In this document: one piece after another, positions 40,575-64,000 of the stretch
Layout of the letters: the number at the start of each line of letters is the position of its first letter
Position numbering within the stretch: the first letter of the stretch is position 1
DNA from: a virus
DNA: 64,000 nucleotides
IMG/VR virus record: IMGVR_UViG_3300025010_000004
Coordinates: 1 to 64,000 of that record
Reading direction: 5' to 3' (one strand)
Notes under the pieces: generated by a model
What the model was told of the DNA's origin: nothing
The model's database searches: none
The model's input: only the letters and a program-made list of their open reading frames with translations
Translations under genes and position numbers: made by a program

Positions 40575-40937
40575 TTAGCTATTTGCATGGTTATATGCAA
40601 TAACTGCTGCTTTTATGTCTTGCCATTGTTTTAGAGTTACTATTGTTGAAGCAGCCTTTGTGCCTTTAAGCTCCGGCTTTTGTAGCACGTAAAAGGTAAA
40701 GGTAGCCCCTAAATAAGATCTTGGATCTATACCATCCATCTGGCTTGTTCCTACCAGTGGGTTATGCGATACCATTCTCACATTCCCGAAACAGAAATCC
40801 TTAGTGTAGCGCAGAGTTCTGGGAGGAGTAGTATCACCAAATTCGTCTTTAAAATGGATCTGCTCTAGCACAGTAACCTTAACCATCTTTCTTTTGTCCT
40901 TGTCTATAAGCTCACCCTTAATCTTGATATGTCTCAT
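40575..40937 (-). CDS. EQTH-family paralogue 1
   Basis: MRHIKIKG...VLEQIHF..EFG...WQDIKAAVIAYN. Confidence 0.7.
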   Translation of the reverse strand: MRHIKIKGELIDKDKRKMVKVTVLEQIHFKDEFGDTTPPRTLRYTKDFCFGNVRMVSHNPLVGTSQMDGIDPRSYLGATFTFYVLQKPELKGTKAASTIVTLKQWQDIKAAVIAYNHANS

Positions 40938-41076
40938 CGTCATCCTCCTCATATAAGTCAGATAGTTCTTCCTCTATTACAGACTTTTCATTTCTACGAT
41001 CATAGTCTTTTATAGAATTCATTCTATGCCCAGGTCTTGGAATAGGCACTCTAATTTGTTTGAAAGGAAGTGCCAT
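40918..41076 (-). CDS. 52-aa protein with acidic tail, not in the ORF track
   Basis: MALPFKQIRVPIPRPG...EEDDDETYQD; start overlaps the upstream stop. Confidence 0.45.
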   Translation of the reverse strand: MALPFKQIRVPIPRPGHRMNSIKDYDRRNEKSVIEEELSDLYEEDDDETYQD

Positions 41077-41264
41077 TATTTATCCTTTACGTATTTTGGG
41101 AGACAGTAAACGTCCCTTATCCCATACATATAGTCCAATTTTTGAAACCTATCCCATGTAATCTTAGCGGACTGCTCGCACGCAGCTCTAGTGGTAAACT
41201 CTTGAGTAGTTACACTAGCTCCGCCATATACAGACATAACTATAAAAAGAATCCAAGTTCCCAT
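41076..41264 (-). CDS. Small membrane/secreted protein
   Basis: Hydrophobic N-terminus; EFTTRAACEQ...YCLPK. Confidence 0.55.
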   Translation of the reverse strand: MGTWILFIVMSVYGGASVTTQEFTTRAACEQSAKITWDRFQKLDYMYGIRDVYCLPKYVKDK

Positions 41265-41286
41265 TTAAATATCCTCCTCTATAAGG

Positions 41287-41490
41287 TCACCTACTAGGCG
41301 GCACGTCCTCCACACCTACTAACCACCAGAAATTTTCGTTTGGGTCATATCTTTCAATTAACGCTACTGTTTCTAACCAATAAATAGTATTTTTGAATGT
41401 GCGCGGAAACCATAAAAATTTTATCCGTGTCCGCTCTTCCCAATCCAGCGGTTTCCCTAGGTTAAATCTCATTTTCACCCCCAACTGCAC
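41287..41490 (-). CDS. Hypothetical protein
   Basis: KFLWFP...YWLE phage-type motif. Confidence 0.5.
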   Translation of the reverse strand: MQLGVKMRFNLGKPLDWEERTRIKFLWFPRTFKNTIYWLETVALIERYDPNENFWWLVGVEDVPPSR

Positions 41491-42827
41491 TCGCTTTTGT
41501 CAAATCTTTCCCTAACAAAAACGCAATGTCTCATGTTATTATCCGCCGTAATCTCTTTGTATATGACTTCAACAATAACCCCCACCATTTTCCCGCGTTT
41601 ATGCCTTAGCCACATATCAAGACCAAGATCATCACCCCACCCACCCATTACTTTACCGGAGATGGTTCCATCTCCTACAAGCATGGTTCCTAGTGAGCCT
41701 TCGTTCTTCGTGCCTTTGGTTCCTTCAAAGCAATCTTCAACTCTAAGATCGGCGGTGTAGAATTCTTTAACTTTTATGTTAGAGTAGCTACGTTTAAACT
41801 GGTAAACATCTTCCTTATCTTTTACCATTATACCTTCTTCATTAGCAGCAACAGCTTCCTTGAACATTCTAACAATATCCTCTTTGTTGTATGCCAGCCT
41901 AGTCACTGACATTTGTATGCTTGGCAAGGGCCTGTCTAGTCTTTCGAATAACCCTGTCAGCTCAGTCTTCCTATACTTAAGAGGCTTGCATGTGCCATTA
42001 GTACCTTGTGTAAGAAAATAGTCATAGTCAATTATATCCCATACCTTGTAGCCCAAGCAGTCACGCATCTCTTTGTCGGGATAGGTTCCTTGTTTGGATT
42101 TAGCCATAGACAGCCCCTGAGCAAACTGCCAATTTTTACCGGCGTCGTAGTTCTTTTTTGCAGTTTTGCAGTTAGGGTTGTATTTAATACCTATCGCCTC
42201 ACCGTCAAGAACAAACTTAGTTCCGGGGCGGAGTTGCATAATCTGAGGAATAAGGTGATCTAGTGTAAGTATTTCAAGACCTTCTCTAGAAAAGAATCGA
42301 ACAGTCTCTCCGTCGCATATCGCAATTACCCTGAAACCGTCGAACTTAATCTCAACTATAGCCGGATATTTAACTTTATCCCAATGCTGTTCTCCAGATT
42401 TAGGCTCAACCATAGGATGGGCCAGCATAACATCAAACACAGGAATTAGATTAGGAAAGGCTTTATTTATAGTGCTGGAGCTTACTCCGGCTTTAAGATC
42501 ACGTTTGATTACTTTCGCTACCCACTCAGCTGATTCTTTAGTGCATTTAGCTAAGAGGCGTTTAATCATACCTCTAGCCTCTGTTGGGGTAGTTGTGTGC
42601 TTGGCTAACAGATCAAGCAGAAGGAAAAGCTCCTGTGATATGTCAGGCTGCACTACGTTGTACGCCACAGGCTCGTCCAACTGCTGAACTCTATACGTCA
42701 AGTAAGGATTGTAGGTGTACCAGAGAAGCTTCTTTAGCGTCTCAGTTTCGTTCTTCCTTAATATTTCTTCTTTTCCATTCTTTGAGGCTTCTTTTGCCAG
42801 CAAAGATAATGTATTAAATTCTTTCAT
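41475..42827 (-). CDS. ATP-dependent DNA ligase
   Basis: EIKFDGFR, VLDGE, VWDI, EGIMVKD, KVKE; OB-fold C-terminus. Confidence 0.93.
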   Translation of the reverse strand: MKEFNTLSLLAKEASKNGKEEILRKNETETLKKLLWYTYNPYLTYRVQQLDEPVAYNVVQPDISQELFLLLDLLAKHTTTPTEARGMIKRLLAKCTKESAEWVAKVIKRDLKAGVSSSTINKAFPNLIPVFDVMLAHPMVEPKSGEQHWDKVKYPAIVEIKFDGFRVIAICDGETVRFFSREGLEILTLDHLIPQIMQLRPGTKFVLDGEAIGIKYNPNCKTAKKNYDAGKNWQFAQGLSMAKSKQGTYPDKEMRDCLGYKVWDIIDYDYFLTQGTNGTCKPLKYRKTELTGLFERLDRPLPSIQMSVTRLAYNKEDIVRMFKEAVAANEEGIMVKDKEDVYQFKRSYSNIKVKEFYTADLRVEDCFEGTKGTKNEGSLGTMLVGDGTISGKVMGGWGDDLGLDMWLRHKRGKMVGVIVEVIYKEITADNNMRHCVFVRERFDKSECSWG

Positions 42828-43177
42828 TATTTCTCCTTGAAGTACTCGTTGTATTGCTCAACTGCTTCTTTTATGGCTGGCCAGAACTCTTGTGGTATAG
42901 GGTACTCTACGCGCTTATCCCAATCTGAGATTCCATTAACGTATAGCTCTGCTCCGTTACTACGCTCAATGAAATGGTCTAGAGGGCCTTCCAGTTCCTC
43001 GTCATAAGGAGAGTCTATTCCATCAGATACTAAATCTATAACCCCCTTATACGTGGCACAAGAGAACCTACTAATACCGTCACCAAAAGTAGCCCCTATA
43101 TTAGTTTGCTCCAGCACTGTAACATAGGCCAGGTTTTTGTCATCAGACAGCCTAGCCCTAACCTTTAAATGCTTCAT
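42827..43177 (-). CDS. EQTH-family paralogue 2
   Basis: MKHLKV...VLEQTNIG..FG...FWPAIKEAVEQYNEYFKE. Confidence 0.75.
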   Translation of the reverse strand: MKHLKVRARLSDDKNLAYVTVLEQTNIGATFGDGISRFSCATYKGVIDLVSDGIDSPYDEELEGPLDHFIERSNGAELYVNGISDWDKRVEYPIPQEFWPAIKEAVEQYNEYFKEK

Positions 43178-43327: not shown

Positions 43328-43343
43328 GTAGAATATGTTCTAC
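43328..43343. promoter_or_regulatory. 16-bp palindrome site 8
   Basis: GTAGAATATGTTCTAC (1 mismatch); supplies the TAG of the ThyX-like gene. Confidence 0.75.
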
Positions 43344-43831
43344 TTCTTAAATAAATTTCCGCAGCATTTAAGCTCTGGGCACACCCCGTTTCTGAACTCA
43401 CATTCCCTAACCATGTACTTGGGTAGGTAAGGGTCTACTAAAGCAACAGCTTCCTTAATAGCTTGCATCACTTCTTGTGTTTCTTTAGATGCTTGTCCGC
43501 ACAGCCTCTTTCGGGACATATTGATAAGTGCTTCGGCGTTAATTAACATTGAATGATTTATCTTAGTTAGTCGGTTAGCTAACTCACCGCCTCTATCTTC
43601 GCGGTTAGTGCCTACAAAATGCTCAACCCCAAATTTATGACGCACGAGATGAACGGAAATGAAGGTCATTATGTTCGTAATAGAACACCAGAACCACTGG
43701 GTCCGTATTGGGCTATGCATATTTCGATATATCTTATCTAGAGTCATTTTACTTTCTCTACCCCGCATGGTGGCAGAGCAAGCGGCTCTTAAAATTCGTT
43801 CGTCAGTCAACTTTGTAACTGTTACTTCCAT
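43340..43831 (-). CDS. thyX: ThyX-like flavin-dependent thymidylate synthase (short phage type)
   Basis: HSPIR, HLVRH, NAEALI...RLC..A..E, C...G.CPE..CCG. Confidence 0.7.
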   Translation of the reverse strand: MEVTVTKLTDERILRAACSATMRGRESKMTLDKIYRNMHSPIRTQWFWCSITNIMTFISVHLVRHKFGVEHFVGTNREDRGGELANRLTKINHSMLINAEALINMSRKRLCGQASKETQEVMQAIKEAVALVDPYLPKYMVRECEFRNGVCPELKCCGNLFKK

Positions 43832-44148
43832 GCAACAGCCTCTTCATTTTCTATAGAGGCTCCGCCGTCTTCAAGTTCCCCGGACCAATCAATTTGCGCG
43901 CGTATCCATTCCCTAAAATCCTTCGATAAAAACTCTCCCCAACGGTGGGACAGCATCGCTTTGGCCGTAATGTCATTACTGAACTTCCGCAACACAACAG
44001 GCAACTCCTCCACCAGTTCATCGAACATAAAATCTCTACTGTTTACGTAGCCGGTTTGTCGTTTGTAGTCAACGTAATCCAACACGCTGAAAGACGGAGG
44101 TGACGGGAATCCTACGTGTATTAGTGCTTTGACTTCAACTTCTTTCAT
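43822..44148 (-). CDS. Hypothetical protein
   Basis: AAGGAGG RBS. Confidence 0.55.
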   Translation of the reverse strand: MKEVEVKALIHVGFPSPPSFSVLDYVDYKRQTGYVNSRDFMFDELVEELPVVLRKFSNDITAKAMLSHRWGEFLSKDFREWIRAQIDWSGELEDGGASIENEEAVAWK

Positions 44149-44351: not shown

Positions 44352-44380
44352 ATTATATCACAAAATATCAACCAAGTCAA
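44352..44380 (-). promoter_or_regulatory. Sigma70 promoter
   Basis: TTGACT-N17-TATAAT with TG extension. Confidence 0.8.
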
Positions 44381-44733
44381 GCATAAAATGCGTTATATGC
44401 TAAAATGGCGTCCTTTATTTGTGGCCAGGCTTTTACGGGTATTCTTAAAACGAAGGTGTCACGTTCTAGGTCATCATGTCCTTTTAGAAAAACAAGGTAA
44501 CGAGCCGGTGAGGCGAACTTTACCCCTCTAGAGTAGGTTTCAAGTTTGCCTAAATCTACAAACTCCATAAAACTCCATGATAGTAGCACTACTTCGCCAT
44601 ACTGGAAGTACGATGCATACGTGGCGCCTTTTGTAGCAAAATCTGCCCCTATGTGACTCTGCTCTACTATTCTTAACTCAGCTACATTAGTGTTTTTTTC
44701 AAGAATAGAAGCAACAACCTTTATATGTTTCAT
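44377..44733 (-). CDS. EQTH-family paralogue 3
   Basis: MKHIKV...IVEQSHIG.DF...FLKG...WPQIKDAILAYN. Confidence 0.75.
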   Translation of the reverse strand: MKHIKVVASILEKNTNVAELRIVEQSHIGADFATKGATYASYFQYGEVVLLSWSFMEFVDLGKLETYSRGVKFASPARYLVFLKGHDDLERDTFVLRIPVKAWPQIKDAILAYNAFYA

Positions 44734-44736: not shown

Positions 44737-45033
44737 TCACTCCTTGAAGTGTTCGTTGTATGCCAGTACGGCTTCTTTAAATCTAGCGTACTCGCCAATA
44801 GGAAGTAGTATGGGGTTTAGGTCACTTGCTCTTTGCCTTCCGCGCACCCATACCTGGTTGTCACGGCCTTTACAAGGAAGCACAGAACTGCTTAGCACAC
44901 ACCCATTGTGGATAAAGTCCCTGTTTTCTGTGCCAAACTCCTCCTCAATGTGAGTCTGTTCAGTTATTACTACACTAACCTCTTTGTACGAGGGCGGAAT
45001 TAATTCCGCCCTATACTTGATATGCTTGTACAT
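44737..45033 (-). CDS. EQTH-family paralogue 4
   Basis: KHIKY...ITEQTHI..EFG...WVRG...FKEAVLAYNEHFKE. Confidence 0.75.
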   Translation of the reverse strand: MYKHIKYRAELIPPSYKEVSVVITEQTHIEEEFGTENRDFIHNGCVLSSSVLPCKGRDNQVWVRGRQRASDLNPILLPIGEYARFKEAVLAYNEHFKE

Positions 45034-46365: not shown

Positions 46366-46905
46366 TTAGAAAAAATCGTCTAATACGTACATGTCGTACT
46401 GCGGTGCTGCTTTTTTCTTTTTGACCTTTTCTGCAGCCGGAGGCTTACTAACAGAAGCCTCAACCTTTTCCTTCTTCTCAGGTTTAGGTTGCACCGCAGA
46501 TTCTTTTTTTGCTCTATCAGGGTCCACATGTTCCACGCCTATAACTATAATAGGCGCATCTTTATCTGGAATCTTAACCCAAGGAAGCTCCTTTAAGCTA
46601 CGACCTATTACGTCAGACCTAGCTCCAGCTAGCAGCCTACCAGCCTCACTCAACGCCTCGGTCTTTGTGGCGGCTGGTAGATATGTCTCCACTACGCCAC
46701 AGCCAAGCGCAGATATTACTGTTCTGTAGGCATTCTGTATGTTGCGGTAGTAGTCTTCATTAAGCCCCAGATATCCTCCGTCAACGTCGCACATAACCCG
46801 GCCCCCGTGGCCAGATATACGCCCTACAATGTAGTCGCGGTATTCTTTACCCCCGCGGTGGAAACCAACAGGCTTCGTAGTTATAACCAAATCGCCGTTT
46901 GCCAT
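46366..46905 (-). CDS. Hypothetical protein with K/P/A-rich tail
   Basis: ORF coupled to the upstream gene. Confidence 0.55.
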   Translation of the reverse strand: MANGDLVITTKPVGFHRGGKEYRDYIVGRISGHGGRVMCDVDGGYLGLNEDYYRNIQNAYRTVISALGCGVVETYLPAATKTEALSEAGRLLAGARSDVIGRSLKELPWVKIPDKDAPIIVIGVEHVDPDRAKKESAVQPKPEKKEKVEASVSKPPAAEKVKKKKAAPQYDMYVLDDFF

Positions 46906-48125
46906 TACTTATCGTCCTCCTTGGTTGATTTTGTTTCTTCCGTTACAGTAACAGGATCGCCCTCTTTGCCGACATGGAAGGGGTCTTTTGTATCTGTAGT
47001 TTTGGTCTCACCTATAAGTTTGAAATACACTTCGATCTGCTTGTGTATCTCATCGTCAGCGTCAAGGTAAACGTCACGAAGATATTTTAAATCTTCGTCG
47101 GTTAGTAGCTCCATAAGTCCGTTCATTATCTCGCCGCAAGTGTCATCGCAGTCACTCCACTGGTAGCCGCAAGACATACAGAACCCTCCCTGCGTAACGA
47201 ACTTAAGCGCAAGATCTATGGTTGACCGTCCTACGGAGTCAATCCATAAAGTATCCGAACTCTGCGTAGTAGTCGTAGTCGTAGGGAGGTTGTTCTTTTT
47301 TCCGTTGTCAGTCCCTTTATACTCATACGGCTTGTAGTTGTTGACATACTTCACCTTAGCAGTAGCCGGGTATAGCTTGTCGATAGGAGCCTTAAGCATG
47401 CCCATCACCCTGCCTATGGTCATGTACATTTCGTCAATGTGCATGTACTCATTTGCTGAATGCTGCTGGTAGTATCCGATTGACAAGTTTACCGCAGGAA
47501 TCAAATACTCTTCCTGCAGATCAGCAATGTCAGAGTACGAGCCGTGGCTGCTCCTGAACCCGAAACTTTCAACGTAATTTATAACTTCGGTTGGTAACTT
47601 AGTTCCGTAAGTAACCCAATCATTACAGCCTTGGCGGTCCATTTCAACAAACAATCTGGTGTTCCTGTTGTCGTACTTCTTGAACACTTCAGTTGCAACG
47701 AACACCCGCACGCCTTTGCCTCCGCTTTCTTCGCCGTTTGTAAGAATGACGCTAGGCATCGGGAGCTTTTCTTTTCGGCATCTTCGCACAAGGTCGATGC
47801 AAGCAAAAACACCAGCGCGATCATCTCCACCAAGAACGCCTGTGGAATTTCGAAGAACGTTCCTGTTCTGCACAAGATTGTAGACCTTTCCTGCATGGAA
47901 TTCATGACGAGGTTTTTCACCCACTTGGAGTTGCGGGTCGCGAACGGTGTCCATGTGAGCAACTATGCATATCGGGCTGTCGCCAACTGCGTACACGAAG
48001 TTATCGCTGTGTATGTATACGTTTTTATATTCACTGCCTAAGAATTTTGTAGCAGCGGTTACTACTTCAAGTGTTGTCATGCTCAGAACTTCCTGAACGG
48101 TACTCATCAGCTTTGTAGGCTTCAT
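46905..48125 (-). CDS. M20/M28-family Zn peptidase-like protein
   Basis: VAHMDTV, GGDDRAG, GEESG, EMDR, YSDI, NLSIGYYQQHS..E. Confidence 0.8.
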   Translation of the reverse strand: MKPTKLMSTVQEVLSMTTLEVVTAATKFLGSEYKNVYIHSDNFVYAVGDSPICIVAHMDTVRDPQLQVGEKPRHEFHAGKVYNLVQNRNVLRNSTGVLGGDDRAGVFACIDLVRRCRKEKLPMPSVILTNGEESGGKGVRVFVATEVFKKYDNRNTRLFVEMDRQGCNDWVTYGTKLPTEVINYVESFGFRSSHGSYSDIADLQEEYLIPAVNLSIGYYQQHSANEYMHIDEMYMTIGRVMGMLKAPIDKLYPATAKVKYVNNYKPYEYKGTDNGKKNNLPTTTTTTQSSDTLWIDSVGRSTIDLALKFVTQGGFCMSCGYQWSDCDDTCGEIMNGLMELLTDEDLKYLRDVYLDADDEIHKQIEVYFKLIGETKTTDTKDPFHVGKEGDPVTVTEETKSTKEDDK

Positions 48126-48180: not shown

Positions 48181-49761
48181 TTACCCTACCTCTTCCGTGA
48201 AGTCCTCCCACCCAGCCGGAAGATCGGCGTAGCGAGGCTTGACCTTAGCGCCTACCTCTTTACCTTTGCGCTTGGCGTCGCATGCCGTACAAAGTTCTTC
48301 CCCATCAGCTCTGTACTTATTGTGGTACATTTCTCCACAATCTTGGCACTTGAACGCAACACCCCCAAGACAGTTATTGCAAACCCTGCCGACGTATTTG
48401 TGGTAAGTTACGTTATCCGTTAGATGGTACAGGCCACACACAGAACAATGCATAAACTTAGGTACGCATTCACCGCACACTTTACCGACACCGGCAAGCT
48501 CTTTTAGTTTACGTGTGTCTTCTTTAAGGCCACAATGTGAGCACAAAGTAAAGTGTTTTTTGTCGCATGCTGTACAAACGTTTCTGCCTTTAATAACAGT
48601 AACATTTCCTTTTTCGTGCCACTCACCACAATACGAGCAGTTACTGTACTTAGCATCAGTGCAGCGCTTGCATATAAGCTGGTTATGTACAGTGTTCATG
48701 GTGTCCATGTTATGGCGCTCTCCGCACACTTCACACGTTCCCCTAGCCTTACCGTAGTGGCCTCGGCAGGTTCCGCCTTGTTTGTATGTGGTTGTAATTC
48801 CACACTCAAGGCACATAGCTGGGGCAAACTGTAAAACTGGCATTTCGTACGCCACCTTAGCCGGGTAAGAAAGATCTATCCCATAGTTGTCAAAATAGAG
48901 TGCTGCGGTGTAGTGGTGATCTTCTGCCGTTGCGTACTTAATTTTACCAGGCGTAAAAGTAATACCGTGCTTAGTAAGGAATTCATTTTCAATCCCAAAT
49001 TTTGCCGATACCTTTTCTTCAAGGAATGCTCTGGCGGCATCACGCTCAAACCCGAAATATGCACCATAAGATTTTGGCTGCACGATGTACCCTTTGTCCG
49101 TAATAGCCATCCAGGTTCTTCCGAGCTTGTATATCTCGGCGTCTGTCATTTTAGCCGTCTCCTTAGCTATAAATGAGATCAGCGATATGCCGTCAGAGGC
49201 GTAGGCAATGTTTCCGTTGTAGTTTTCATGCCCAAAACTGTGGCACGAGCTAAAGGCGGCGTTGTCGGAAGCTGTAAGAAAATCTAGCAGATTGGTAGAA
49301 ACTACGAGCTTCCTGCCAGATTTTATAACGTCTCCTAGCCTCGGCAGAAACTGCTTGCGGTTACTGAGCTTAAGTTCAGGGGCGCAATATTCGATTATCT
49401 CGTCATTGTCCTCAAGCTGCTTGGCAAGAATTTTAGATATCTTACCCGGCTGGCCTTTCATAATAATCTCATTTTTAACCAGAGATATAGTAGAAAGGTC
49501 AATCTGATTACCCTTTTGCACAGCCTGATGCAGTAGATGCGCAACAACAGAGTAAGCAACAGGGTAATCCTTCCGCAGCATCTGTTCAGATTTGACCATA
49601 GGGATCTCAACGCGAAACATGTTGTCTTCGTTAAGCCCAACCATAGCGTCGATTTCAGCCTTAGCCTTGCGCATTGTGGCATACACTTTGTCAAGCGCGC
49701 CTGTAGGAATCCTGCGCTTTCGCAAAACCAATTCAATAGTTTTCAGCATTTCTTTGTTCAT
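48181..49761 (-). CDS. Phage protein with SC-motif domain and tandem CxxC Zn-finger repeats
   Basis: DFLTAS...FSSCH...YASD; about ten CxxC pairs in the C-terminal third. Confidence 0.65.
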   Translation of the reverse strand: MNKEMLKTIELVLRKRRIPTGALDKVYATMRKAKAEIDAMVGLNEDNMFRVEIPMVKSEQMLRKDYPVAYSVVAHLLHQAVQKGNQIDLSTISLVKNEIIMKGQPGKISKILAKQLEDNDEIIEYCAPELKLSNRKQFLPRLGDVIKSGRKLVVSTNLLDFLTASDNAAFSSCHSFGHENYNGNIAYASDGISLISFIAKETAKMTDAEIYKLGRTWMAITDKGYIVQPKSYGAYFGFERDAARAFLEEKVSAKFGIENEFLTKHGITFTPGKIKYATAEDHHYTAALYFDNYGIDLSYPAKVAYEMPVLQFAPAMCLECGITTTYKQGGTCRGHYGKARGTCEVCGERHNMDTMNTVHNQLICKRCTDAKYSNCSYCGEWHEKGNVTVIKGRNVCTACDKKHFTLCSHCGLKEDTRKLKELAGVGKVCGECVPKFMHCSVCGLYHLTDNVTYHKYVGRVCNNCLGGVAFKCQDCGEMYHNKYRADGEELCTACDAKRKGKEVGAKVKPRYADLPAGWEDFTEEVG

Positions 49762-50007: not shown

Positions 50008-50433
50008 TTACTTCCACCCCTTCTCTTCAAGTAGCCGTCTGAAGCGCGCTGCTTGTTCTTTTGCTTCAATAACTAGCTTGGCTTCTTCTACTTCCCGCGC
50101 AGCAATCGCTTCGTCGGTAAAGTAGGTGTTGTACTTTTTTACTGCTATTTTTAGCTTCTTCCAGCCATCTGCGTGAATAACACAGGACCTAGACGGATGC
50201 CCTACTGGTGCGTTTAGTAAGTCTCTAGACAGCACCCTAAACTCAGCACCAGTAGTTGGGCCTGGTCGGCCATACGAAGAGCTGGCAAGTCTGAACTTTG
50301 TAGTAGATATAAATCTTCGACTTTTATCTCCGAAATCTACGTAAGCGTGCGTCTGCTCCAGTATAGTTACTCTACAAAGTTCGAAATTATGCTCCGGGAG
50401 TAATTCTCCTTTAATCTTAATGTGCTTTGCCAT
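50008..50433 (-). CDS. EQTH-family paralogue 5 (helical C-extension)
   Basis: KHIKIKG...ILEQTH..DFG...WKKLKIAVKKYNTYF. Confidence 0.75.
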   Translation of the reverse strand: MAKHIKIKGELLPEHNFELCRVTILEQTHAYVDFGDKSRRFISTTKFRLASSSYGRPGPTTGAEFRVLSRDLLNAPVGHPSRSCVIHADGWKKLKIAVKKYNTYFTDEAIAAREVEEAKLVIEAKEQAARFRRLLEEKGWK

Positions 50434-50493: not shown

Positions 50494-50838
50494 TTACCCG
50501 ATAATTACCGTGCATACATCCGCTTTTTTCGGAGCCGGTGCAGGCACACATGCGAAGTACTTGTTATAGGCTTCGACAGCGGCTTTGAATTTGGCGTAGG
50601 TGGTTATGGGCATGGTGAGGGTGTAGTTGTTGCGGTAGGCGTTGTGGCCGCGAACAAAAACTTTATTGGCACCATCTACCTCAGGGTAAGCTGCGCTAGC
50701 AATGGTAAACCCACAGTGGGTAAACCTATCACTGCAGTCCCCGAAGTTGCTGTTAATATGAGTTTGCGAAAGGATCTGAACTTTTACAGTCTGGAAATCA
50801 GGAGCCACCGGGGTTACTTTACACGTAATTTTTTTCAT
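50494..50838 (-). CDS. EQTH-family paralogue 6 with C-terminal ADVCTVIIG tail
   Basis: ILSQTHI..NFG...FVRG...FKAAVEAYNKYF-PAPAPKK-ADVCTVIIG*. Confidence 0.8.
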   Translation of the reverse strand: MKKITCKVTPVAPDFQTVKVQILSQTHINSNFGDCSDRFTHCGFTIASAAYPEVDGANKVFVRGHNAYRNNYTLTMPITTYAKFKAAVEAYNKYFACVPAPAPKKADVCTVIIG

Positions 50839-50896: not shown

Positions 50897-51247
50897 TTAG
50901 CCGACGATTACAGCACACGCATCAGCTTTGGGAGCCGGTGGAGCACAGACAGCGTTTACACGGTTGTACTCTTTGACCGCCTCAACAACTTTCGCCCACA
51001 GCTTTTTGCCAACAACGACGGTGTTTCCGTTTTTGGCAGCGTCGGACCCACGGAGCCAGATGGTGTTATTGTCATCTTTGTCACGGGCGGGGTGCTTGTT
51101 GGAACCGAGGACGATTCCGTTGGAAGCGCGGAACTTGTTGCTGTAGCCCTTACCGAAGGCGTATCCGGTGTGGGTCTGCTCGGTAACATTAAACATGACC
51201 TTATTGTAGTTCGGGTTCACCACGGCCTGAAGTATAACTTTTTTCAT
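50897..51247 (-). CDS. EQTH-family paralogue 7 with C-terminal ADACAVIVG tail
   Basis: VTEQTH...FG...FRASNG...WLRG...VEAVKEYN-PPAPK-ADACAVIVG*. Confidence 0.8.
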   Translation of the reverse strand: MKKVILQAVVNPNYNKVMFNVTEQTHTGYAFGKGYSNKFRASNGIVLGSNKHPARDKDDNNTIWLRGSDAAKNGNTVVVGKKLWAKVVEAVKEYNRVNAVCAPPAPKADACAVIVG

Positions 51248-51367: not shown

Positions 51368-51769
51368 TTAGCCGATGATTACAGCGCAGAAATCAGCAGG
51401 CTGTGCCGCAGGCTTACGCGGTGCCGGAGCCTTGGGAGCTGCATAGCAGCGAGGATCTGCGAAATCGAAGGCATTGTACTCTTTAACAGCAGCGACGATT
51501 TTTTCCCACTCAGCTTTGGTACATTCAACTGCGGAATCGTTGCTTTTCGCCTTGGAGCCACGCAGCCAGATAACGTTCTTCTCATCTGTGTCGCGTGCCG
51601 GGTGGCTGTTGGAAGCAAGAACGATGCCGTTGCTGGCAACGAACTTACGGGGGTCAAGGCTCCGCACGTCACCGAAGTCGCGTCCTTTGTGTGTCTGCTC
51701 CAGCACTTTAAAGAGCACCTTCGTAAAGTTGGGAACGACTTGTGCGGTAATCTTGATGTGTTTTCTCAT
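51368..51769 (-). CDS. EQTH-family paralogue 8 with C-terminal ADFCAVIIG tail
   Basis: AAGGAGG RBS, MRKHIKI...VLEQTH...FVASNG...WLRG...VAAVKEYN...ADFCAVIIG*. Confidence 0.8.
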   Translation of the reverse strand: MRKHIKITAQVVPNFTKVLFKVLEQTHKGRDFGDVRSLDPRKFVASNGIVLASNSHPARDTDEKNVIWLRGSKAKSNDSAVECTKAEWEKIVAAVKEYNAFDFADPRCYAAPKAPAPRKPAAQPADFCAVIIG

Positions 51770-51832: not shown

Positions 51833-52402
51833 TTAATGTTTATTCCTGTTTCCTCCGAAGTAGACCTTTTGATAGGCACGCTCCGCGCGCCAAGGCTCTA
51901 CTTTTTCTTTAGCCGGTCTTTCCTTAACAGGAACACCAACCTTTTTGACTGCTGCGCTTATGGAACTCTTTTCTTTTTCTGGTTCTTTTACATCATGAAA
52001 CTCGTTGTACGCTTTTACCGCCTGCTTGAACCGATCATAGGTTTCTTTGCCAAGCTCGAACGATACTTTTCCTACATCGCTAGGACGAAACAAAAGAACT
52101 ACACAGGTTCGATAGTGCAGACCTGGCTCATATTCACTAATTCTACCAAGCTCCAGAGAATACAAGTTAAGAGCATCTTCACCCTCAACTTTGTGGTTGA
52201 ACACCTTAGACTTGTCGTTAAAATTTTCACCAAAATGAGTCTGTTCGGTTATAGTCACCTTAACGGTTTCAAATAACGGAGGTGTTATTTCCGCCTTATA
52301 TTTTATGTGTCTTCTAACTTTTTTAGTAACAAAAGCACCTGTAACCCATTCGTACCGTTCAGGGTAAGTCTCTCCCTCATGGTAGGTGTAGTATTTATAC
52401 AT
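51833..52402 (-). CDS. EQTH-family paralogue 9 (N- and C-extensions)
   Basis: RHIKYKA...ITEQTHFG.NF...FKQAVKAYNEF. Confidence 0.75.
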   Translation of the reverse strand: MYKYYTYHEGETYPERYEWVTGAFVTKKVRRHIKYKAEITPPLFETVKVTITEQTHFGENFNDKSKVFNHKVEGEDALNLYSLELGRISEYEPGLHYRTCVVLLFRPSDVGKVSFELGKETYDRFKQAVKAYNEFHDVKEPEKEKSSISAAVKKVGVPVKERPAKEKVEPWRAERAYQKVYFGGNRNKH

Positions 52403-53323: not shown

Positions 53324-53645
53324 TTAATCTTTGAAATACTCGTTGTATTCGTTAACCGCAGCTACTACCTCAGGCCAACGCGCAAATGGAATTGACAGTT
53401 CGAAGTTATCTTCGTTTTTGTTATCTCCTTTGAGGAAAACATAATAGTGCTCACCTTCAAGAAAAGCCTCCGGCCTTCCCAAATCACTCATTAATATGAC
53501 TAGATTCGATGCCTTAAATTGATCTTCATATGCTCGGTCTTCGTAGGCACACCCGAACTCTTTATACACATGGGTCTGCTCTATTATTCTGACGCGCATT
53601 CTATCACCTTCGTCAGGCTTAGCTATCAGGCTTAATGTGCTTCAT
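53324..53645 (-). pseudogene. EQTH-family paralogue 10, frameshifted near the 5' end (in-frame restart possible at 53599)
   Basis: GGAGG-ATG AAG CAC ATT AAG (MKHIK), then one extra C; +1 frame continues LIAKPDEGDRMRVRIIEQTH...VAAVNEYNEYFKD. Confidence 0.7.
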
Positions 53646-55032: not shown

Positions 55033-55075
55033 TGTTGTAATCCTCCTTAAAAGTAAAAAGTATACTTCTAGTTCT

Positions 55076-55264
55076 TTAGATAACCCATACTATAAGCGCT
55101 TCAATTCTAGCCAAGCATACTTCTAACGTAGGGGCAAACCTTATGTCTGCGTTGTCAATGTTGAACGCCATACAGAAGGCGGTTCCGAAATTCCACAAGG
55201 GGTAAGGGTCGCTGAGGTATTTATTCTTGAATTCCGCGAAATCACGGTAGCTCAGTTCGATCAT
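55076..55264 (-). CDS. Hypothetical protein
   Basis: AAGGAG RBS; FGTAFCMAF. Confidence 0.5.
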   Translation of the reverse strand: MIELSYRDFAEFKNKYLSDPYPLWNFGTAFCMAFNIDNADIRFAPTLEVCLARIEALIVWVI

Positions 55265-55314
55265 GTGTTTTCTCCTTCATTAAAAAATTATAATGTTTGA
55301 CATGCATTTTTTAC

Positions 55315-55484
55315 TTGACAAAATCAACTTTTTGTGGTATAATGCATTCATCGAGCCGTTAGGCGAAGATGAATGCTATAGGGTTTTAAGGTTATGCCTT
55401 GCTGTATGCCTTGCTGTATGCTTTGCTTATGACCTTAACCCTGTGTCTACCCCGCCCGAAGGGCGGGAGGCGTTTTAATGAGAA
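55315..55484 (+). ncRNA. Promoter-driven structured non-coding element, copy 2
   Basis: TTGACA-N17-TATAAT at 55315-55343; three hairpins; loop with TATGCCTTGCTG repeats; 47 nt identical to 36359-36405. Confidence 0.65.
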
Positions 55485-58173: not shown

Positions 58174-58182
58174 TTTGCCTCC

Positions 58183-59271
58183 TTATTCTTTCGCTTTTAT
58201 ATTTAGCACAGGTTTTATGAAATCAACTACATCAATAGTAATACCCTCCTGCGCCTTCATGACGTAGTTAATGTCTTTGTATGCCTCTGGAGCCTCATCT
58301 AGTATGCTCCTATCTGTGGAACAAACAACGCCTTCCATCTGGCCTACGAATTTATCGTAGTCAAGATTCTTCTTGGCGGCGTTTCTGCCCATAGTTCGTC
58401 CACACCCGTGAGACGCCGATGAAAGAAACTTTTCATTACCAAGTCCTTTGGTGATGTACACACCATCCCTCATATTAGCAGGAATTATGCCAAGTTGATG
58501 TGCGTCGGCTGGCGTAGCACCTTTTCGGTGCAGCACTCCTTCTTTTGTAATAATTGCGTGGTTATGGTTTTCGTTAATTAGAAGATTGCTCTTGTATGTG
58601 ACACCGAGAATCTTACATATTTTGTTTATCATTTTTAACCTGTTATATAACGCCCACTCTAACGCAAAATTCATATCCCCTAAGTAGGACAACCCAAGGT
58701 CTGATAATAAAGGAAACATTCTTCCTTGTTTCATGTACCACCCGCCTATTGTATGCCCAACGTTACGACTTCCTGAATGAATAGTCACACAATACGTGCC
58801 AGTATTTTGGCTTATCCCTATCTCTATGAAGTGATTGCCCCCTCCTAGAGTACCTAGCTGCATAACAGATTTTTCTTTTACTCTCTGTTTCACTTCTTTA
58901 GGCATGTGAGAGTGGATAACATATTCAAAATGATAGTCTGACTTATCAAGAGATGAAAATCCAGTAGGGATGGTTTTAACTATATCATCGTATAACTGTT
59001 TAAGGTTATCCTTTGATAGCTCATACTGAGGTATGTTTGTGTCAACCGAGCACATACCACATCCCACGTCGAAGCCTACGAAGCTAGGAGAGATCATGCC
59101 GTCAAGCAAGGCCACTCCGCCGATTGGAAGATCATAACCAGCGTGAACGTCAGGCATAATAGCCAATTTTTTAAGACATTCCAATGAAAGAACGTCATAA
59201 ATCTGCTGCTGCGCTGACTGCTCTATTTCTTCCATCGGCACCATAGACTGTAGTTTGTCAAGCTTGCTCAT
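58183..59271 (-). CDS. rtcB: RtcB-family RNA ligase
   Basis: MPDVHAG..LPIG, DVGCGM, GTLGGGNHFIE, HSGSR, HRKGA, SASHGCGR, DEAPEAYK. Confidence 0.93.
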   Translation of the reverse strand: MSKLDKLQSMVPMEEIEQSAQQQIYDVLSLECLKKLAIMPDVHAGYDLPIGGVALLDGMISPSFVGFDVGCGMCSVDTNIPQYELSKDNLKQLYDDIVKTIPTGFSSLDKSDYHFEYVIHSHMPKEVKQRVKEKSVMQLGTLGGGNHFIEIGISQNTGTYCVTIHSGSRNVGHTIGGWYMKQGRMFPLLSDLGLSYLGDMNFALEWALYNRLKMINKICKILGVTYKSNLLINENHNHAIITKEGVLHRKGATPADAHQLGIIPANMRDGVYITKGLGNEKFLSSASHGCGRTMGRNAAKKNLDYDKFVGQMEGVVCSTDRSILDEAPEAYKDINYVMKAQEGITIDVVDFIKPVLNIKAKE

Positions 59272-59281
59272 ATAATCTCCT

Positions 59282-59632
59282 TTACTCCTTGAAATATTCG
59301 TTGTATGCTTCTACTGCGGCTTTGATTCTGGGCCAGTCTTCCGAATAAATATCGAAAGTATGATAGTTTTGTATTGCAGACCCTCGCAGGTAGCATGTTA
59401 AAGTTGTTCGCCTAGCATGACTTACTACTTTTTGGGTGTGCGGAATATTCCCAGCGTGTGATACTAGGCGCACTCCGTTATGACAGAAGTCTACCGCTTG
59501 TTGTATTTGTACTACCTTTGGCAACTTTAAATCCCCAAAATCAGTATGAAAATGAGTTTGCTCAAGTATAGTTACAGCAGCCGCAGTCCTATCCTCAGAC
59601 AAAACACATTTAAGTTTTATATGTTTAGGCAT
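59282..59632 (-). CDS. EQTH-family paralogue 11
   Basis: KHIKL...ILEQTHF..DFG...YLRG...WPRIKAAVEAYNEYFKE. Confidence 0.78.
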   Translation of the reverse strand: MPKHIKLKCVLSEDRTAAAVTILEQTHFHTDFGDLKLPKVVQIQQAVDFCHNGVRLVSHAGNIPHTQKVVSHARRTTLTCYLRGSAIQNYHTFDIYSEDWPRIKAAVEAYNEYFKE

Positions 59633-59634: not shown

Positions 59635-59964
59635 TTACTCCTTGAAATATTCGTTGTAGGCTTTAACGGCCTCCTTAATTAAAGGCCACATGTCGGCAGG
59701 TACGTCGAACGCTACGTTTTTTCTACTACTGGATATTAACCTAACATCAACTTGCCCGTCAGTCTTGTTTCGTCCGTCAAAGTTAGGATAATTATGCGTA
59801 GCAGAGAACAGGTCAATAACTCCGTGTCTGAATACTCTGCTATGCATTCTACCGGAAATATTTCCTCCAAACTCATCATCAAAATGTGTCTGTTCAAGTA
59901 TAGTCACGGATGCGGTTTGTTTGTTTTTAGATAGTATGGCGGATAATTTAAGGTGTTTATGCAT
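59635..59964 (-). CDS. EQTH-family paralogue 12
   Basis: KHLKL...ILEQTHF..EFG...WPLIKEAVKAYNEYFKE. Confidence 0.78.
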   Translation of the reverse strand: MHKHLKLSAILSKNKQTASVTILEQTHFDDEFGGNISGRMHSRVFRHGVIDLFSATHNYPNFDGRNKTDGQVDVRLISSSRKNVAFDVPADMWPLIKEAVKAYNEYFKE

Positions 59965-61933: not shown

Positions 61934-61963
61934 AATTAAATTCTCCTTTGTGTTAGTTTGTAA

Positions 61964-61979: not shown

Positions 61980-62068
61980 TTTTTAGTTAATAAAAAATGC
62001 TTATATTCGGTATATAATACATATAGGAGCAGTTGGATTCGGCTCAAATAACTTATACTGGAGACGCG

Positions 62069-63325
62069 ATGAACCATTTTTACGTTTACTGCTACACAAA
62101 CCCAACAAAACCTGGAAGGTTCACTTTCCCTAATACAAATCTTTCTTTTCTATATGAACCTTTTTACATCGGTAAAGGTGCTTTAGATAGGATGTATAAT
62201 CATGTTAATGAGTCAATTAAAAAGAAAAATAAAACATGGAAAAATAAAACAATTTTATCTATATTAGAATCTGGGTACAATCCTAAAGACTTTGCATTTA
62301 AGCTGGCTGTACAATTAACAGAGGAGGAGGCATACTCAGTAGAGGAAACGTTAATAGCCACTATCGGCAGGCTGTCTACTAGAAAAGGCCCACTACTTAA
62401 TATACGAACTGGCGGGTTAGGGAGTAGTAATAAAAGTTATTGGAAAACAACTAATAAACTAACCCCAATACAAGAATACGAATGTGTATCTTTATACTTA
62501 AATGGTGAATCTATTAGTACATTATCAGCTAGGTTTGGGTTATTTAAAACCGCCATCCGAGGTATATTACTACGGCACGATGTAACAATAGTACGTAAAC
62601 CCACAGAAAAAAGAAGCAAGACTTTAAGTCTCATCCCAAATATTCTAGAAGACTACGAAAACGGTATGTCATCTATAAAAATAGGACAAAAATACTGTAT
62701 ATCAAAACGCACTGTATTATCAGAGCTTAGGAAAGCAGGAGTAACTATGAAAGAGCCTGCTTTCTATAAGACTATAAAAGATGAAGATGTACCTAATATA
62801 AGAGCCGCCTTTTTACGTGGAGAACGTGTAGAAGCTTTGGCCAAAAAATATAAAGTATCCACTAATACTATAAATAGGGCTATTCGTTATAATGAAGTAG
62901 TAACAGCAACTGGAAAATTAAAAATTAAAACTAACATTACCAGGCATAACCTGCTTAAAAAACTAACCGAAGACCAAGAATATCAACTAGGTCAAGACTA
63001 CATAGCTGGTATGTCATCTAGTGAATTAGCAGCAAAGTATAACGTTTTCTACACAACAGCCCTAGCAATTTTGAAACGACTCAACATACAAACTAGGCCT
63101 AGTTCAACACCAGACAAAACAACAATTGACCTAACACCAGAAGTTATAGAAATGTACCAGTCAGGACTAAGCTCTCTCGATATATTCAGAAAGTTGCCAG
63201 TAAGTCGCAACACAATTTTACGCATTCTTCACAGAAATAATGTACCACTTAGGCAAAGTGGAAAGCAGCCTACTAAGGTTATAGGTAGTAGTGATGCAGA
63301 AGAACTTGATGCTATGATGCAATAG
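62069..63325 (+). CDS. GIY-YIG (LEM3-like) homing endonuclease with about five tandem HTH repeats
   Basis: FYVY...PFYIGKG..R..H, E..LI..IGR..GPLLN; repeated Y..G.S...LA.KY; AT-rich and opposite strand to its neighbours. Confidence 0.75.
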   Translation: MNHFYVYCYTNPTKPGRFTFPNTNLSFLYEPFYIGKGALDRMYNHVNESIKKKNKTWKNKTILSILESGYNPKDFAFKLAVQLTEEEAYSVEETLIATIGRLSTRKGPLLNIRTGGLGSSNKSYWKTTNKLTPIQEYECVSLYLNGESISTLSARFGLFKTAIRGILLRHDVTIVRKPTEKRSKTLSLIPNILEDYENGMSSIKIGQKYCISKRTVLSELRKAGVTMKEPAFYKTIKDEDVPNIRAAFLRGERVEALAKKYKVSTNTINRAIRYNEVVTATGKLKIKTNITRHNLLKKLTEDQEYQLGQDYIAGMSSSELAAKYNVFYTTALAILKRLNIQTRPSSTPDKTTIDLTPEVIEMYQSGLSSLDIFRKLPVSRNTILRILHRNNVPLRQSGKQPTKVIGSSDAEELDAMMQ

Positions 63326-63344
63326 TAATAGCCTGTATTGAAAC

Positions 63345-63377
63345 AGGGAAGGCTAGCCATAAACACAAGCCTTCCCT
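63345..63377. terminator. Hairpin between convergent genes
   Basis: AGGGAAGGCT-N13-AGCCTTCCCT. Confidence 0.5.
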
Positions 63378-63409
63378 TCTTCTAACAGTCTACAACGGTA
63401 GTTACATTT

Positions 63410-64000
63410 TTATCCGATCACAACAGCACAGGCGTCCACCGGTACTTCTATTGCTTTTGCAGGCGCAGCACATTTCTTCGATGCAGCGTAAACTTCGTTG
63501 TATTCTTTGACTGCATCTGCGAGCTTCTTGAAAGTGGCCGCAGGAACACGCATGACGTTGTTGTCCGAGCGGTTATCGGTTCCTCGCAGATATAGTTCGT
63601 TATGACCTATGCTGTAAAACGCTGGAGATGTATCGCTCAAAAGCTTGAACCCATTCGAGGCCACAAAATAGTTTGCATTTTCAGAAAAATCTTTTCGAAT
63701 GTGCGTCTGCTCAAGAACCTGAACATCCACAAACTGAAAGTCGGGGCCAACCGGAGTGCCGGAGATCTTGATGTGGCGCGGGTCGAAGGAGAAGAAGGCG
63801 TTGTAGGCTTCGACGGCAGCTTTGATCTTGACGTATGTAGCAACTGGTACGGCTATGGTTCGGTGGTCCAGATCGCGCCGAGTTCCACGTACATACAGAA
63901 GACCCCCATAGAGAGCCAAAGCCCCTTGACTACTAAGAGTGAACCCATCGTGCTTGAATTCCTCACCACAAGTACCGAATTCAGCTCCCCTGTGGCTCTG
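63410..64000 (-). CDS. EQTH-family paralogue 13: at least two tandem domains plus VDACAVVIG tail; 5' end outside the window
   Basis: Frame open to 64000: QSH..EFG...YVRG...IKAAVEAYNAFF, then RHIKI...VLEQTH...YLRG...AVKEYN...VDACAVVIG*. Confidence 0.8.
   Translation of the reverse strand, partial: QSHRGAEFGTCGEEFKHDGFTLSSQGALALYGGLLYVRGTRRDLDHRTIAVPVATYVKIKAAVEAYNAFFSFDPRHIKISGTPVGPDFQFVDVQVLEQTHIRKDFSENANYFVASNGFKLLSDTSPAFYSIGHNELYLRGTDNRSDNNVMRVPAATFKKLADAVKEYNEVYAASKKCAAPAKAIEVPVDACAVVIG

What the first reader, a model, noticed from the sequence alone, without database searches (positions are those of the whole stretch)
40575..64000. Uncharacterised 'EQTH' protein family expanded to 13 genes, with a fixed scaffold and a hypervariable core
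Seen: 13 minus-strand genes share an approx. 100-aa pattern [KR]H[IL]K-x12-18-[IV][LTV]EQ[TS]H-x3-4-F[GAN]-(variable)-F-x-L-x-S-(variable)-[LV][RK]G-x-[WY]xx[IF]KxA[VI]xxYN. They start (low coordinate) at 40575, 42827, 44377, 44737, 50008, 50494, 50897, 51368, 51833, 53324, 59282, 59635 and 63410; the last has two tandem domains. The ends are conserved while the internal loops differ greatly in length and sequence. Copies occur as singletons, tandem pairs, a run of five, a domain fusion and a frameshifted copy, which is the pattern of birth-and-death evolution. They are interspersed with counter-defence-type genes (NARP1-like pair, RtcB, HD-GYP). I do not recognise the family. Inference: a diversified binder repertoire (one fold, many specificities) against host defence or host-takeover targets.
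Basis: partly seen in the sequence, partly recalled or inferred. Interest (0 to 1): 0.88.

Follow-up and report, generated by a model that had tools for sequence, protein, structure and literature searches.

The report
Unannotated phage protein family, 14 copies
A 113-kb phage from groundwater carries 14 old, diverged copies of a small protein domain that is in no family database and matches no solved fold; its function is unknown and is most likely a set of binding or adaptor modules.

Summary
All 13 genes are at the stated coordinates on the minus strand. A 14th lies just past the window (genome 67002-67577). That makes 15 domains, with profile E-values of 1e-21 to 1e-66, and no other remnants in the 113,294-bp genome (DTR, groundwater/sediment).

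The family has no hit in Pfam, PHROGs, NCBIfam or PDB sequences. tblastn with three members found nothing in 50,697 deposited phage genomes. An exhaustive profile search still finds 1,183 clusters in metagenomes, many of them tandem arrays of 2-5 domains.

Two AF2 models (pLDDT 86.6 and 96.9) give seven strands plus a C-terminal helix. There is no convincing PDB match (best Z 5.6, about half the domain, PH-like).

Q25, S58, Y110 and N111 are essentially invariant across 234 domains. Insertions and deletions fall in four loops.

The copies are old paralogues (30-50% identical to each other), and each has closer orthologues elsewhere. Copy number differs between related strains, and the frameshift in one copy is real.

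dN/dS is higher than in flanking genes and highest in the loops, but never above 1. About a quarter of members carry a Pro/Ala linker ending in C-x-V-I-I-G.

Function is unproven. My best reading (about 0.4) is diversified recognition/adaptor modules. The scan's other notes on this family all concern this same genome.

The parts
40575..40937 (-). Copy 1, single domain, 120 aa, basic (pI 9.6)
   Evidence: ORF. Start chosen behind AGGAGG. Profile E 5.6e-23. 86% orthologue P0062.
42827..43177 (-). Copy 2, single domain, 116 aa, acidic (pI 4.6); has EQTN instead of EQTH
   Evidence: E 1.4e-26.
44377..44733 (-). Copy 3, single domain, 118 aa; tandem with copy 4
   Evidence: E 5.3e-24. 87% orthologue P0016.
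44737..45033 (-). Copy 4, the most compact member at 98 aa; used for the high-confidence model
   Evidence: AF2 pLDDT 96.9, pTM 0.88. Profile E 9.4e-34.
50008..50433 (-). Copy 5, domain plus a charged C-terminal extension rich in Ala, Glu, Lys and Arg (helical by my reading; not modelled); first gene of the run of five
   Evidence: E 1.4e-25.
50494..50838 (-). Copy 6, domain plus Pro/Ala linker plus C-terminal CTVIIG tail
   Evidence: GC3 0.53.
50897..51247 (-). Copy 7, domain plus Pro/Ala linker plus CAVIVG tail
   Evidence: GC3 0.63.
51368..51769 (-). Copy 8, domain plus longer Pro/Ala/Lys linker plus CAVIIG tail
   Evidence: GC3 0.58.
51833..52402 (-). Copy 9, domain with a 30-aa N-terminal extension and a basic C-terminal extension, 189 aa; last gene of the run of five
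   Evidence: E 1.7e-21. 95% orthologue P0045.
53324..53645 (-). Copy 10, frameshifted. MKHIK (ATG at 53645, GGAGG upstream) is out of frame with the rest because of one extra base at 53629-53630. An internal ATG at 53599 could still give a 91-aa product that lacks strand 1
   Evidence: Contigs of a related strain in two runs lack that base. L006 carries the intact 106-aa orthologue.
59282..59632 (-). Copy 11, single domain, 116 aa, next to RtcB; reference for residue numbering
   Evidence: AF2 pLDDT 86.6. 66% orthologue in L005.
59635..59964 (-). Copy 12, single domain, 109 aa; tandem with copy 11
   Evidence: E 1.4e-30. 88% orthologue in L005.
63410..64000 (-). Copy 13, two fused domains plus Pro/Ala linker plus CAVVIG tail. 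The gene continues to 64075, beyond the window
   Evidence: two stretches, 1.7e-30 and 6.9e-34. Orthologue P0002.

Best explanation
These genes encode a phage-specific, so far unannotated domain of about 100 aa.

Predicted, inferred or observed in sequence:
- The predicted domain has seven beta strands closed by one C-terminal amphipathic helix.
- I infer that a fixed core (hydrophobic strand faces, the helix face W/I/A-V/Y-N/F, and an invariant polar set Q25-S58-Y110-N111 with H27/E24) holds four loops.
- Those four loops differ freely in length, sequence and charge.
- The genome keeps 14 old paralogues in its replication and nucleotide-metabolism arm, among NAD-salvage, RtcB, tRNA-synthetase and HD genes.

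Inferred:
- Each copy is a cytoplasmic recognition module for a different macromolecular target, of the host or of the phage itself.
- The C-terminal appendages say what is done with the bound target. Some copies have no appendage and would be plain binders or blockers.
- A distinct, GC-richer subfamily carries a flexible Pro/Ala linker and a conserved C-terminal peptide, C-[AST]-V-[IV]-[IV]-G. This peptide would dock onto one common partner. The logic is the same as in SspB (ClpX-binding tail), SSB (acidic tip) or FtsZ (C-terminal peptide): domain, then linker, then short docking motif.
- Tandem arrays of 2-5 domains in relatives would give multivalency.

The family, its anatomy and its evolution are shown. 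The binding function and the docking role of the tail are inferred.
For: - The family is real, with 15 domains.
- It has no hit in Pfam, PHROGs, NCBIfam or PDB sequences.
- An exhaustive search finds 1,183 clusters at E<=1e-3 and 437 at E<=1e-10.
- One fold is predicted with high confidence in two paralogues.
- Insertions, deletions and entropy concentrate in four loops, while the strands and helix are fixed.
- pI ranges from 4.6 to 9.8 among the 14 proteins, so the surfaces differ.
- Orthologue pairs give dN/dS of 0.27-0.33, against 0.05-0.23 for flanking genes. Loops give 0.5-0.75 against 0.15-0.24 for the scaffold.
- A related strain has an extra copy at the 59-kb locus, and the frameshifted copy is intact in relatives.
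- Contigs of the related strain align at the ends of genes 44737 and 59282 but skip their cores (table 5).
- Tails: 41 of 179 proteins end in C-x4-G/Q behind a linker of 30% Ala and 16% Pro. At least 9 more end in a hydrophobic stretch followed by G or E. The tail is far better conserved than the domain.
- Tail-bearing members form a supported clade. In this genome they have GC3 of 0.50-0.68, against 0.31-0.43 for the other copies.
- Domains are fused head to tail without linkers in 41 of 179 proteins.
Against: - No target, partner or interaction was identified.
- The four invariant polar residues (Q, S, Y, N in at least 229 of 234 domains) are more typical of a ligand or catalytic site than of a pure scaffold. 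I could not get model coordinates to see whether they are buried or form a pocket.
- No pair reached dN/dS above 1.
- Expression timing is inferred from gene position only. No RNA data are available.
- The neighbourhood argument is weak, because the copies are spread over 27 kb among ordinary replication genes.
Confidence: 0.4

Rival explanations
1. The domain is a small-ligand binder or a small enzyme. The invariant Q25, S58, Y110, N111 (with H27, E24, K3/H4/K6, R83) would form one conserved site for a shared moiety, such as a nucleotide-derived immune signal, NAD/ADP-ribose or a phosphate group. The variable loops would tune specificity. The 14 copies would then be a panel of sponges or hydrolases for different signals.
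For: - Polar residues are near-absolutely conserved over 234 very divergent domains.
- Conserved basic residues sit at the N-terminus and before the RG turn.
- The variable loops start directly after the conserved EQTH-FG, L-x-S and RG motifs, as at an active-site rim.
- Neighbours include NAD-reconstitution genes and an HD phosphohydrolase.
- Tandem arrays are also compatible with oligomeric sponges.
Against: - No similarity to any known sponge or nuclease family by sequence. No such fold stood out in the structure searches either.
- The helix periodicity puts Y110/N111 on the face that packs on the sheet, so the polar set may be a structural hydrogen-bond staple (inference).
- Several members replace H27, E24 or R83.
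Confidence: 0.22
2. The tail-bearing members are substrates rather than adaptors. The C-x-V-I-I-G end would be post-translationally modified, cyclised, conjugated through its C-terminal Gly, or cleaved off. The roughly 100-aa domain would act as a leader or recognition element, in RiPP-like or ubiquitin-like logic.
For: - The Cys at -6 and the terminal Gly are both conserved: all 41 Cys-class tails have the Cys by definition, and 39 of them end in Gly.
- In this genome a second Cys often flanks the linker.
- A metallopeptidase of the M20/M42 type (46905-48125) and Cys-rich proteins of unknown function lie beside the run of five.
Against: - Most family members have no tail at all, so the domain works on its own.
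- NCBIfam, which holds the NHLP and Nif11 leader models, gives no hit.
- No radical-SAM, YcaO, LanM, E1-like or ATP-grasp enzyme was detected in the neighbours scanned.
- There is no Gly-Gly type cleavage motif before the tail.
Confidence: 0.1
3. The domains are nucleic-acid-binding regulators, for instance of the 16-bp GTAGAA-N4-TTCTAC palindromes that punctuate this arm of the genome.
For: - Many copies are basic, with a median family pI of 8.8.
- The N-terminal K-H-I-K is conserved.
- Palindromes are abundant: 15 in the window against 0.26 expected.
Against: - Several copies are strongly acidic (pI 4.6, 4.7).
- Fourteen regulators for one palindrome family is implausible.
- The palindromes are not specifically placed next to family genes.
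- No known DNA- or RNA-binding fold was matched above background.
Confidence: 0.08
4. The family is structural or assembly-related (scaffold, decoration or injected internal proteins), and its copies are interchangeable.
For: - Tandem head-to-tail arrays are common in relatives.
- A hydrophobic C-terminal strand could add to a neighbouring sheet.
Against: - All copies lie in the minus-strand replication/metabolism arm, between ligase, helicases, polymerase, NAD and tRNA genes, and not with the large plus-strand genes at 1-14 kb.
- There are no signal peptides or transmembrane segments.
Confidence: 0.05

Closest known systems
PH-like superfold, including bacterial PH domains (bPH, Pfam PF14470/PF03703)
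   Same: Size is about 100 aa, and the order of elements is the same: seven strands, then one C-terminal helix. The top of the exhaustive structure list is dominated by PH, PTB and FERM-F3 domains and histone-chaperone PH-like domains. One Atlas cluster of bPH_3 proteins is the nearest by TM-score (0.51).
   Different: Only about 50 of 98-116 residues align, covering the C-terminal half, and the best Z is 5.2-5.6. That is below the usual background of 7-8 for this search. Foldseek E is 0.06 or worse. The bPH_3 profile finds nothing in the genome at E<=1, and Pfam gives no hit. Membership is not established.
SspB-type adaptors, and more generally 'domain - disordered linker - C-terminal docking peptide' proteins (SSB, FtsZ); named from general knowledge
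   Same: The architecture of the tail-bearing subfamily matches: a small beta-rich recognition domain, a Pro/Ala-rich flexible linker of about 10-50 residues, and a short, highly conserved peptide at the very C-terminus.
   Different: There is no sequence or fold relationship, and the docking partner is unknown. The motif C-x-V-I-I-G resembles none of the known tails. This is an analogy of design only.
Psb28 (photosystem II assembly factor)
   Same: It gives the longest structural overlap: 71 of 98 residues, a beta sheet plus C-terminal helix.
   Different: Z is 3.1, rmsd 3.8 A and identity 10%, which is within noise. The biology is unrelated.
Diversified small accessory or counter-defence gene sets of large phages
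   Same: They are small, cytoplasmic, encoded among early and metabolic genes, variable between strains, and neighbour NAD-salvage and RtcB genes.
   Different: Here a single domain family supplies 14 genes in one genome and more than a thousand clusters in metagenomes. No member has a tested function.

Membership tests
PH-like / bacterial PH (bPH) domains | Seven antiparallel strands in two sheets, capped by a C-terminal amphipathic helix | tested here: inconclusive
   The order and number of elements fit. VIA-align Z is 5.2-5.6 over about 50 residues.
PH-like / bacterial PH (bPH) domains | Match to a Pfam bPH profile | tested here: not met
   No Pfam hit for 10 members at E<=1. PF14470 finds nothing in the whole genome at E<=1.
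NHLP / Nif11-type RiPP precursors | Leader homologous to nitrile hydratase alpha or Nif11, detected by NCBIfam/TIGRFAM models | tested here: not met
   No NCBIfam hit for any of the 15 members at E<=0.1.
NHLP / Nif11-type RiPP precursors | A modification enzyme (LanM, radical SAM, YcaO) encoded nearby | tested here: not met
   Pfam and PHROG scans of the ORFs tested between 34.7 and 63.3 kb show none. The only candidate enzyme is an M20/M42-like peptidase.
Diversity-generating retroelement (DGR) target proteins | A reverse transcriptase and a template/variable repeat pair | tested here: not met
   No RVT_1 match in the genome. The only DNA repeats are the 60-80% identical conserved ends of the paralogues.
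Known phage signal sponges and counter-defence families (Tad1/2, Acb1/2 and similar) | Sequence or fold match to a described family | tested here: inconclusive
   No Pfam, PHROG or PDB-sequence hit. None stands out in the structure searches. A missing fold match does not exclude a relationship.
SspB-like tethering adaptors | The C-terminal peptide binds a protease or unfoldase while the domain binds the substrate | not testable with these tools
   The host is unknown and no partner is identified. Only the architecture is comparable.

The most novel reading that the evidence does not exclude
The domain has a new fold and serves as a programmable targeting scaffold of uncultivated phages. Each paralogue would recognise a different host protein through its four loops. 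The tail-bearing subfamily would deliver its cargo to one host machine, such as a protease or another ring-shaped complex, through the invariant C-x-V-I-I-G peptide. That would make the set a phage-encoded panel of degradation or relocation adaptors for host takeover or counter-defence.
Probability: 0.15. Interest if true: 0.85.

Novelty: categorically new. Interest (0 to 1): 0.64.

Why it matters
A domain with more than a thousand sequence clusters, a confidently predicted fold without a solved counterpart and no database entry is a gap in phage protein annotation. It deserves a family definition.

Fourteen retained, anciently diverged copies in one 113-kb genome cost about 5% of its coding capacity (roughly 5.5 of 113 kb). 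That implies a function that pays off through diversity.

The conserved C-terminal hexapeptide on a flexible linker is a short, experimentally tractable handle. It could be used in peptide pull-downs, Cys or Gly mutants, or mass spectrometry. These could reveal either a new docking site on a host machine or a new protein modification.

If the copies are target-specific binders, they would also be a natural small-scaffold library.

Tried and rejected
- **Family and sequence searches with no result:** Pfam, PHROGs and NCBIfam on members. Pfam on ten long fused relatives, which gave only a sub-threshold Cap15 hit at E 0.009. A PDB sequence profile.
- **Phage collections:** tblastn of three members against 50,697 phage records and megablast of 16 kb both found nothing.
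- **IMG/VR scans:** a motif pattern and proteins P0029, P0169, the two-domain protein and alignment A4 gave nothing, or spurious 47-aa matches inside a 2,099-aa ORF.
- **GTDB genome contigs:** nothing.
- **Alignments A2, A3 and A5** were too diverse for the locus finder.
- **Metagenome scan:** only five short contigs.
I therefore could not examine the 33-134-kb contigs that carry relatives, and could not test co-occurrence of the tail with a partner gene.
- **Word-based search for longer fused forms:** nothing.
- **ESM Atlas:** no feature hits, and its own models are poor.
- **Homodimer job** on the tail-bearing copy 50494: no verdict, score 0.06, so it gives no evidence either way.
- **RNA:** no RNA holder is listed among the sequencing runs.
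- **Promoter and terminator scan:** not above shuffled background.
- **Literature:** searches for the tail strings and for comparable phage family expansions found nothing relevant.
- **DGR idea:** rejected, because there is no reverse transcriptase.
- **Structure searches:** the best hits were FRMPD4 FERM (Z 5.6/5.2), Akt PH (Z 4.5/4.1), Psb28 (Z 3.1) and SRP14 (Z 3.4). None rises above the tool's stated background.
Full report
**1. What is there**

The window is the first 64 kb of a complete 113,294-bp virus record with direct terminal repeats. Its DNA occurs in groundwater and sediment metagenomes from two studies. Its DNA polymerase is only about 27% identical to those of T5-like Vibrio phages and large Bacillus phages. 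A 16-kb stretch of its DNA matches no deposited phage.

A profile run on the six-frame translation of the whole genome finds these 13 plus one gene at genome 67002-67577. That gives 14 genes and 15 domains, with E-values of 1e-21 to 1e-66. The next ORF scores E 3.4. Most copies have a strong AGGAGG-type ribosome-binding site. The true starts of three genes are 40937, 51769 and 59964.

Two stretches are detectable even as DNA repeats of 60-80% identity: the one coding V-T-I-L-E-Q-T-H..F-G and the one coding W-P-x-I-K-x-A-V-x-A-Y-N-E-Y-F-K-E-stop.

**2. The frameshifted copy**

Upstream of 53599, MKHIK (ATG at 53645, GGAGG in front) lies in another frame. Removing one base at 53629 restores a canonical 106-aa protein. 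Contigs of a related strain in two runs lack exactly that base (table 4). A metagenome contig, L006, carries the intact orthologue between 93-97% identical flanking genes. The frameshift is therefore real in the dominant strain and recent.

**3. How big the family is**

- Pfam-A, PHROGs v4, NCBIfam 20 and a PDB sequence profile give nothing.
- tblastn of three diverse members finds nothing in 50,697 phage records.
- Scans of IMG/VR and GTDB contigs find nothing beyond this genome.
- The exhaustive profile search of 1.84 billion representatives finds 1,183 proteins at E<=1e-3, 437 at E<=1e-10 and 24 at E<=1e-30.
- None carries a name or a precomputed Pfam domain.
- Relatives sit on contigs of up to 107-134 kb.
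- Among the 179 proteins I could analyse, 138 have one domain, 32 two, 3 three, 5 four and 1 five, fused head to tail.
- Ten long fused forms have no Pfam domain in their remaining parts.

**4. Structure**

AF2 with a 100-sequence alignment gave pLDDT 86.6 and pTM 0.81 for the 116-aa copy at 59282. It gave pLDDT 96.9 and pTM 0.88 for the 98-aa copy at 44737. Both models show a long beta1-beta2 hairpin, a short turn carrying F-G, a beta3-beta4 hairpin, two or three further strands and a 17-residue C-terminal helix.

- Foldseek finds no PDB match (best E 0.06 and 0.8).
- In BFVD, only two uncharacterised 'uncultured marine phage' proteins match (E 1e-3, TM 0.5).
- The exhaustive VIA-align search gives a best Z of 5.6 and 5.2 over about 50 residues. 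The top of the list is dominated by PH, PTB and FERM-F3 domains and PH-like histone-chaperone domains. The tool states that Z below 8 is common background.
- A second look at Foldseek's candidates gives Z of 3.4 or less.
- One Atlas cluster of bPH_3 proteins is nearest, at TM 0.51, to a poor Atlas model. The bPH_3 profile finds nothing in the genome.

I conclude that the fold has no convincing solved counterpart. A very remote PH-like relationship is possible but unproven.

**5. Conservation**

Over 234 domains the counts are: N111 234, Q25 233, Y110 229, S58 229 and F32 229. F49 is F or Y in 226, A106 is 215 and G84 is 208. H27 is 191, R83 is 163, and E24 is 150. Numbering follows the 59282 protein.

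Insertions, deletions and high entropy are confined to residues 34-47, 59-63, 67-78 and 85-91. Each of these loops starts right after a conserved motif: EQTH-x4-FG, L-x-S or RG. The helix shows the i/i+3/i+4 periodicity of a face that packs on the sheet (W100, I103, A106/V107, Y110/N111, F114). The invariant polar set may therefore staple the helix to the strand ends, or it may form a site. I had no coordinates to decide between the two.

The pI of the 14 proteins ranges from 4.6 to 9.8.

**6. C-terminal appendages**

Of the 179 proteins:
- 67 end within 8 residues of the Y-N motif.
- 41 carry a linker (30% Ala, 16% Pro, 9% Lys; linker plus tail 15-60 residues) ending in C-[AST]-[V]-[IV]-[IV]-G. 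The Cys is present in all 41 by definition of the class, and Gly ends 39 of them.
- At least 9 end in a hydrophobic stretch followed by G or E, without the Cys.
- 60 have other extensions.

A metagenome relative (L009) ends in a further hydrophobic-acidic variant.

In this genome the four tail-bearing genes are 50494, 50897, 51368 and 63410. They belong to a supported tail-bearing clade. They also have GC3 of 0.50-0.68, against 0.31-0.43 for most other copies (copy 44737 reaches 0.50) and 0.42 genome GC, and this holds within the domain part too. That points to a separate history for this subfamily.

**7. Evolution**

Within the genome, the best paralogue identity is 30-50%. The best matches elsewhere are 52-99% for 12 of the 15 domains and 31-44% for the other three. 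The 15 domains are scattered over the family tree. The set is therefore old and retained, not a recent burst.

Turnover does occur. The syntenic contig L005 has a third copy between the orthologues of 59635 and 59282, and it lacks RtcB. A strain in run X3 also lacks RtcB. Contigs of that strain match the ends of genes 44737 and 59282 but skip their cores (table 5).

Nei-Gojobori dN/dS values are:
- Family genes: 0.30, 0.27 and 0.33 for three orthologue pairs.
- Flanking genes: 0.05, 0.11, 0.23 and 0.06 for four genes.
- Loops against scaffold: 0.75 against 0.15, and 0.50 against 0.24, in the two unsaturated pairs.

Counts are small and no value exceeds 1. The 59282 pair has dS of 0.97, against 0.18-0.35 for its neighbours. 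This suggests allele replacement by recombination.

No reverse transcriptase is present, so the variation is not made by a DGR.

**8. Context**

The copies are spread over 27 kb of the minus-strand arm. That arm also holds:
- DnaB-like and SF2 helicases, a metallophosphatase, ATP-dependent DNA ligase and a ThyX fragment;
- an HD protein and an M20/M42-like peptidase;
- a NAMPT-like plus Prs-like pair (NARP1-type by domain content) and RtcB;
- a Glu/Gln-tRNA synthetase and a plus-strand GIY-YIG endonuclease.

No modification enzyme that would explain the tail was recognised among the neighbours scanned.

**9. Interpretation**

The anatomy is a rigid small core, four free loops, heterogeneous charge, optional C-terminal appendages and multivalent arrays. 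It best fits a family of recognition modules. The Pro/Ala linker plus invariant terminal peptide fits a tethering motif, with the same design logic as SspB, SSB or FtsZ tails (named from general knowledge, not tested).

I give this reading about 0.4. A shared-ligand or catalytic reading, based on the invariant polar set, gets about 0.2. A substrate or modification reading of the tail gets about 0.1. Nucleic-acid-binding and structural roles get less. The homodimer prediction gave no verdict.

**10. Novelty**

No known family passes a membership test. The family, its fold and its tail motif are undescribed in the libraries and papers I could search. Other notes in this scan (e1-6018185, e1-6018196, e1-6018199, e1-6018210) describe the same genes in this same genome. 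Nothing was found on other DNA.

Noticed in passing
window 58183-59271 (RtcB); L005:1271-1970: RtcB is a strain-variable insertion. A contig in run X3 joins 58178 to 59277, and the syntenic contig L005 goes straight from the 59282 orthologue to the 57880 orthologue.
   Followed up: partly
L005:954-1313: A related phage has a third family copy (120 aa, 40-43% identical to its neighbours) inserted between the orthologues of 59635 and 59282.
   Followed up: partly
window 7791-63052 (15 sites, e.g. 48160, 51803, 55486, 57868): The 16-bp palindrome GTAGAA-N4-TTCTAC occurs 13 times exactly and twice with one mismatch, against 0.26 expected. Most sites are at gene junctions, and they are not tied to the family genes.
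   Followed up: partly
window 48181-49761 and 53656-55032: Two large proteins (526 and 458 aa) flanking the run of five have no family hit. The first ends in about seven CxxC...CxxC zinc-ribbon-like repeats. The 197-aa protein at 52718-53311 is also Cys-rich.
   Followed up: partly
window 46905-48125: A phage-encoded M20/M42-like metallopeptidase (PHROG 'peptidase', E 3e-23; Peptidase T, E 2e-7) lies close to the tail-bearing copies. A link to the tail is untested.
   Followed up: partly
window 55297-55343, plus strand: A perfect sigma-70 consensus (TTGACA-17-TATAAT with TG) points against the surrounding minus-strand genes. Contig depth roughly doubles at 54822-55472, as expected for a repeated element. 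Several contigs end or diverge here.
   Followed up: no
window 43340-44148: The ThyX match covers only the last about 45 profile positions of a 163-aa ORF. The upstream 108-aa ORF has no hit. The gene may be split or decayed, and strain contigs skip 43501-43822.
   Followed up: no
window 62033-63325, plus strand: A GIY-YIG endonuclease with several HTH repeats is the only plus-strand gene in this arm. It sits between the tRNA synthetase and the two-domain family gene, and is probably a mobile homing element.
   Followed up: no
L009:611-2940: In a metagenome relative, the family gene lies downstream of two paralogous 364-411-aa proteins of unknown function and upstream of a small HExxH-type protein. 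The context is not shared with this genome.
   Followed up: no
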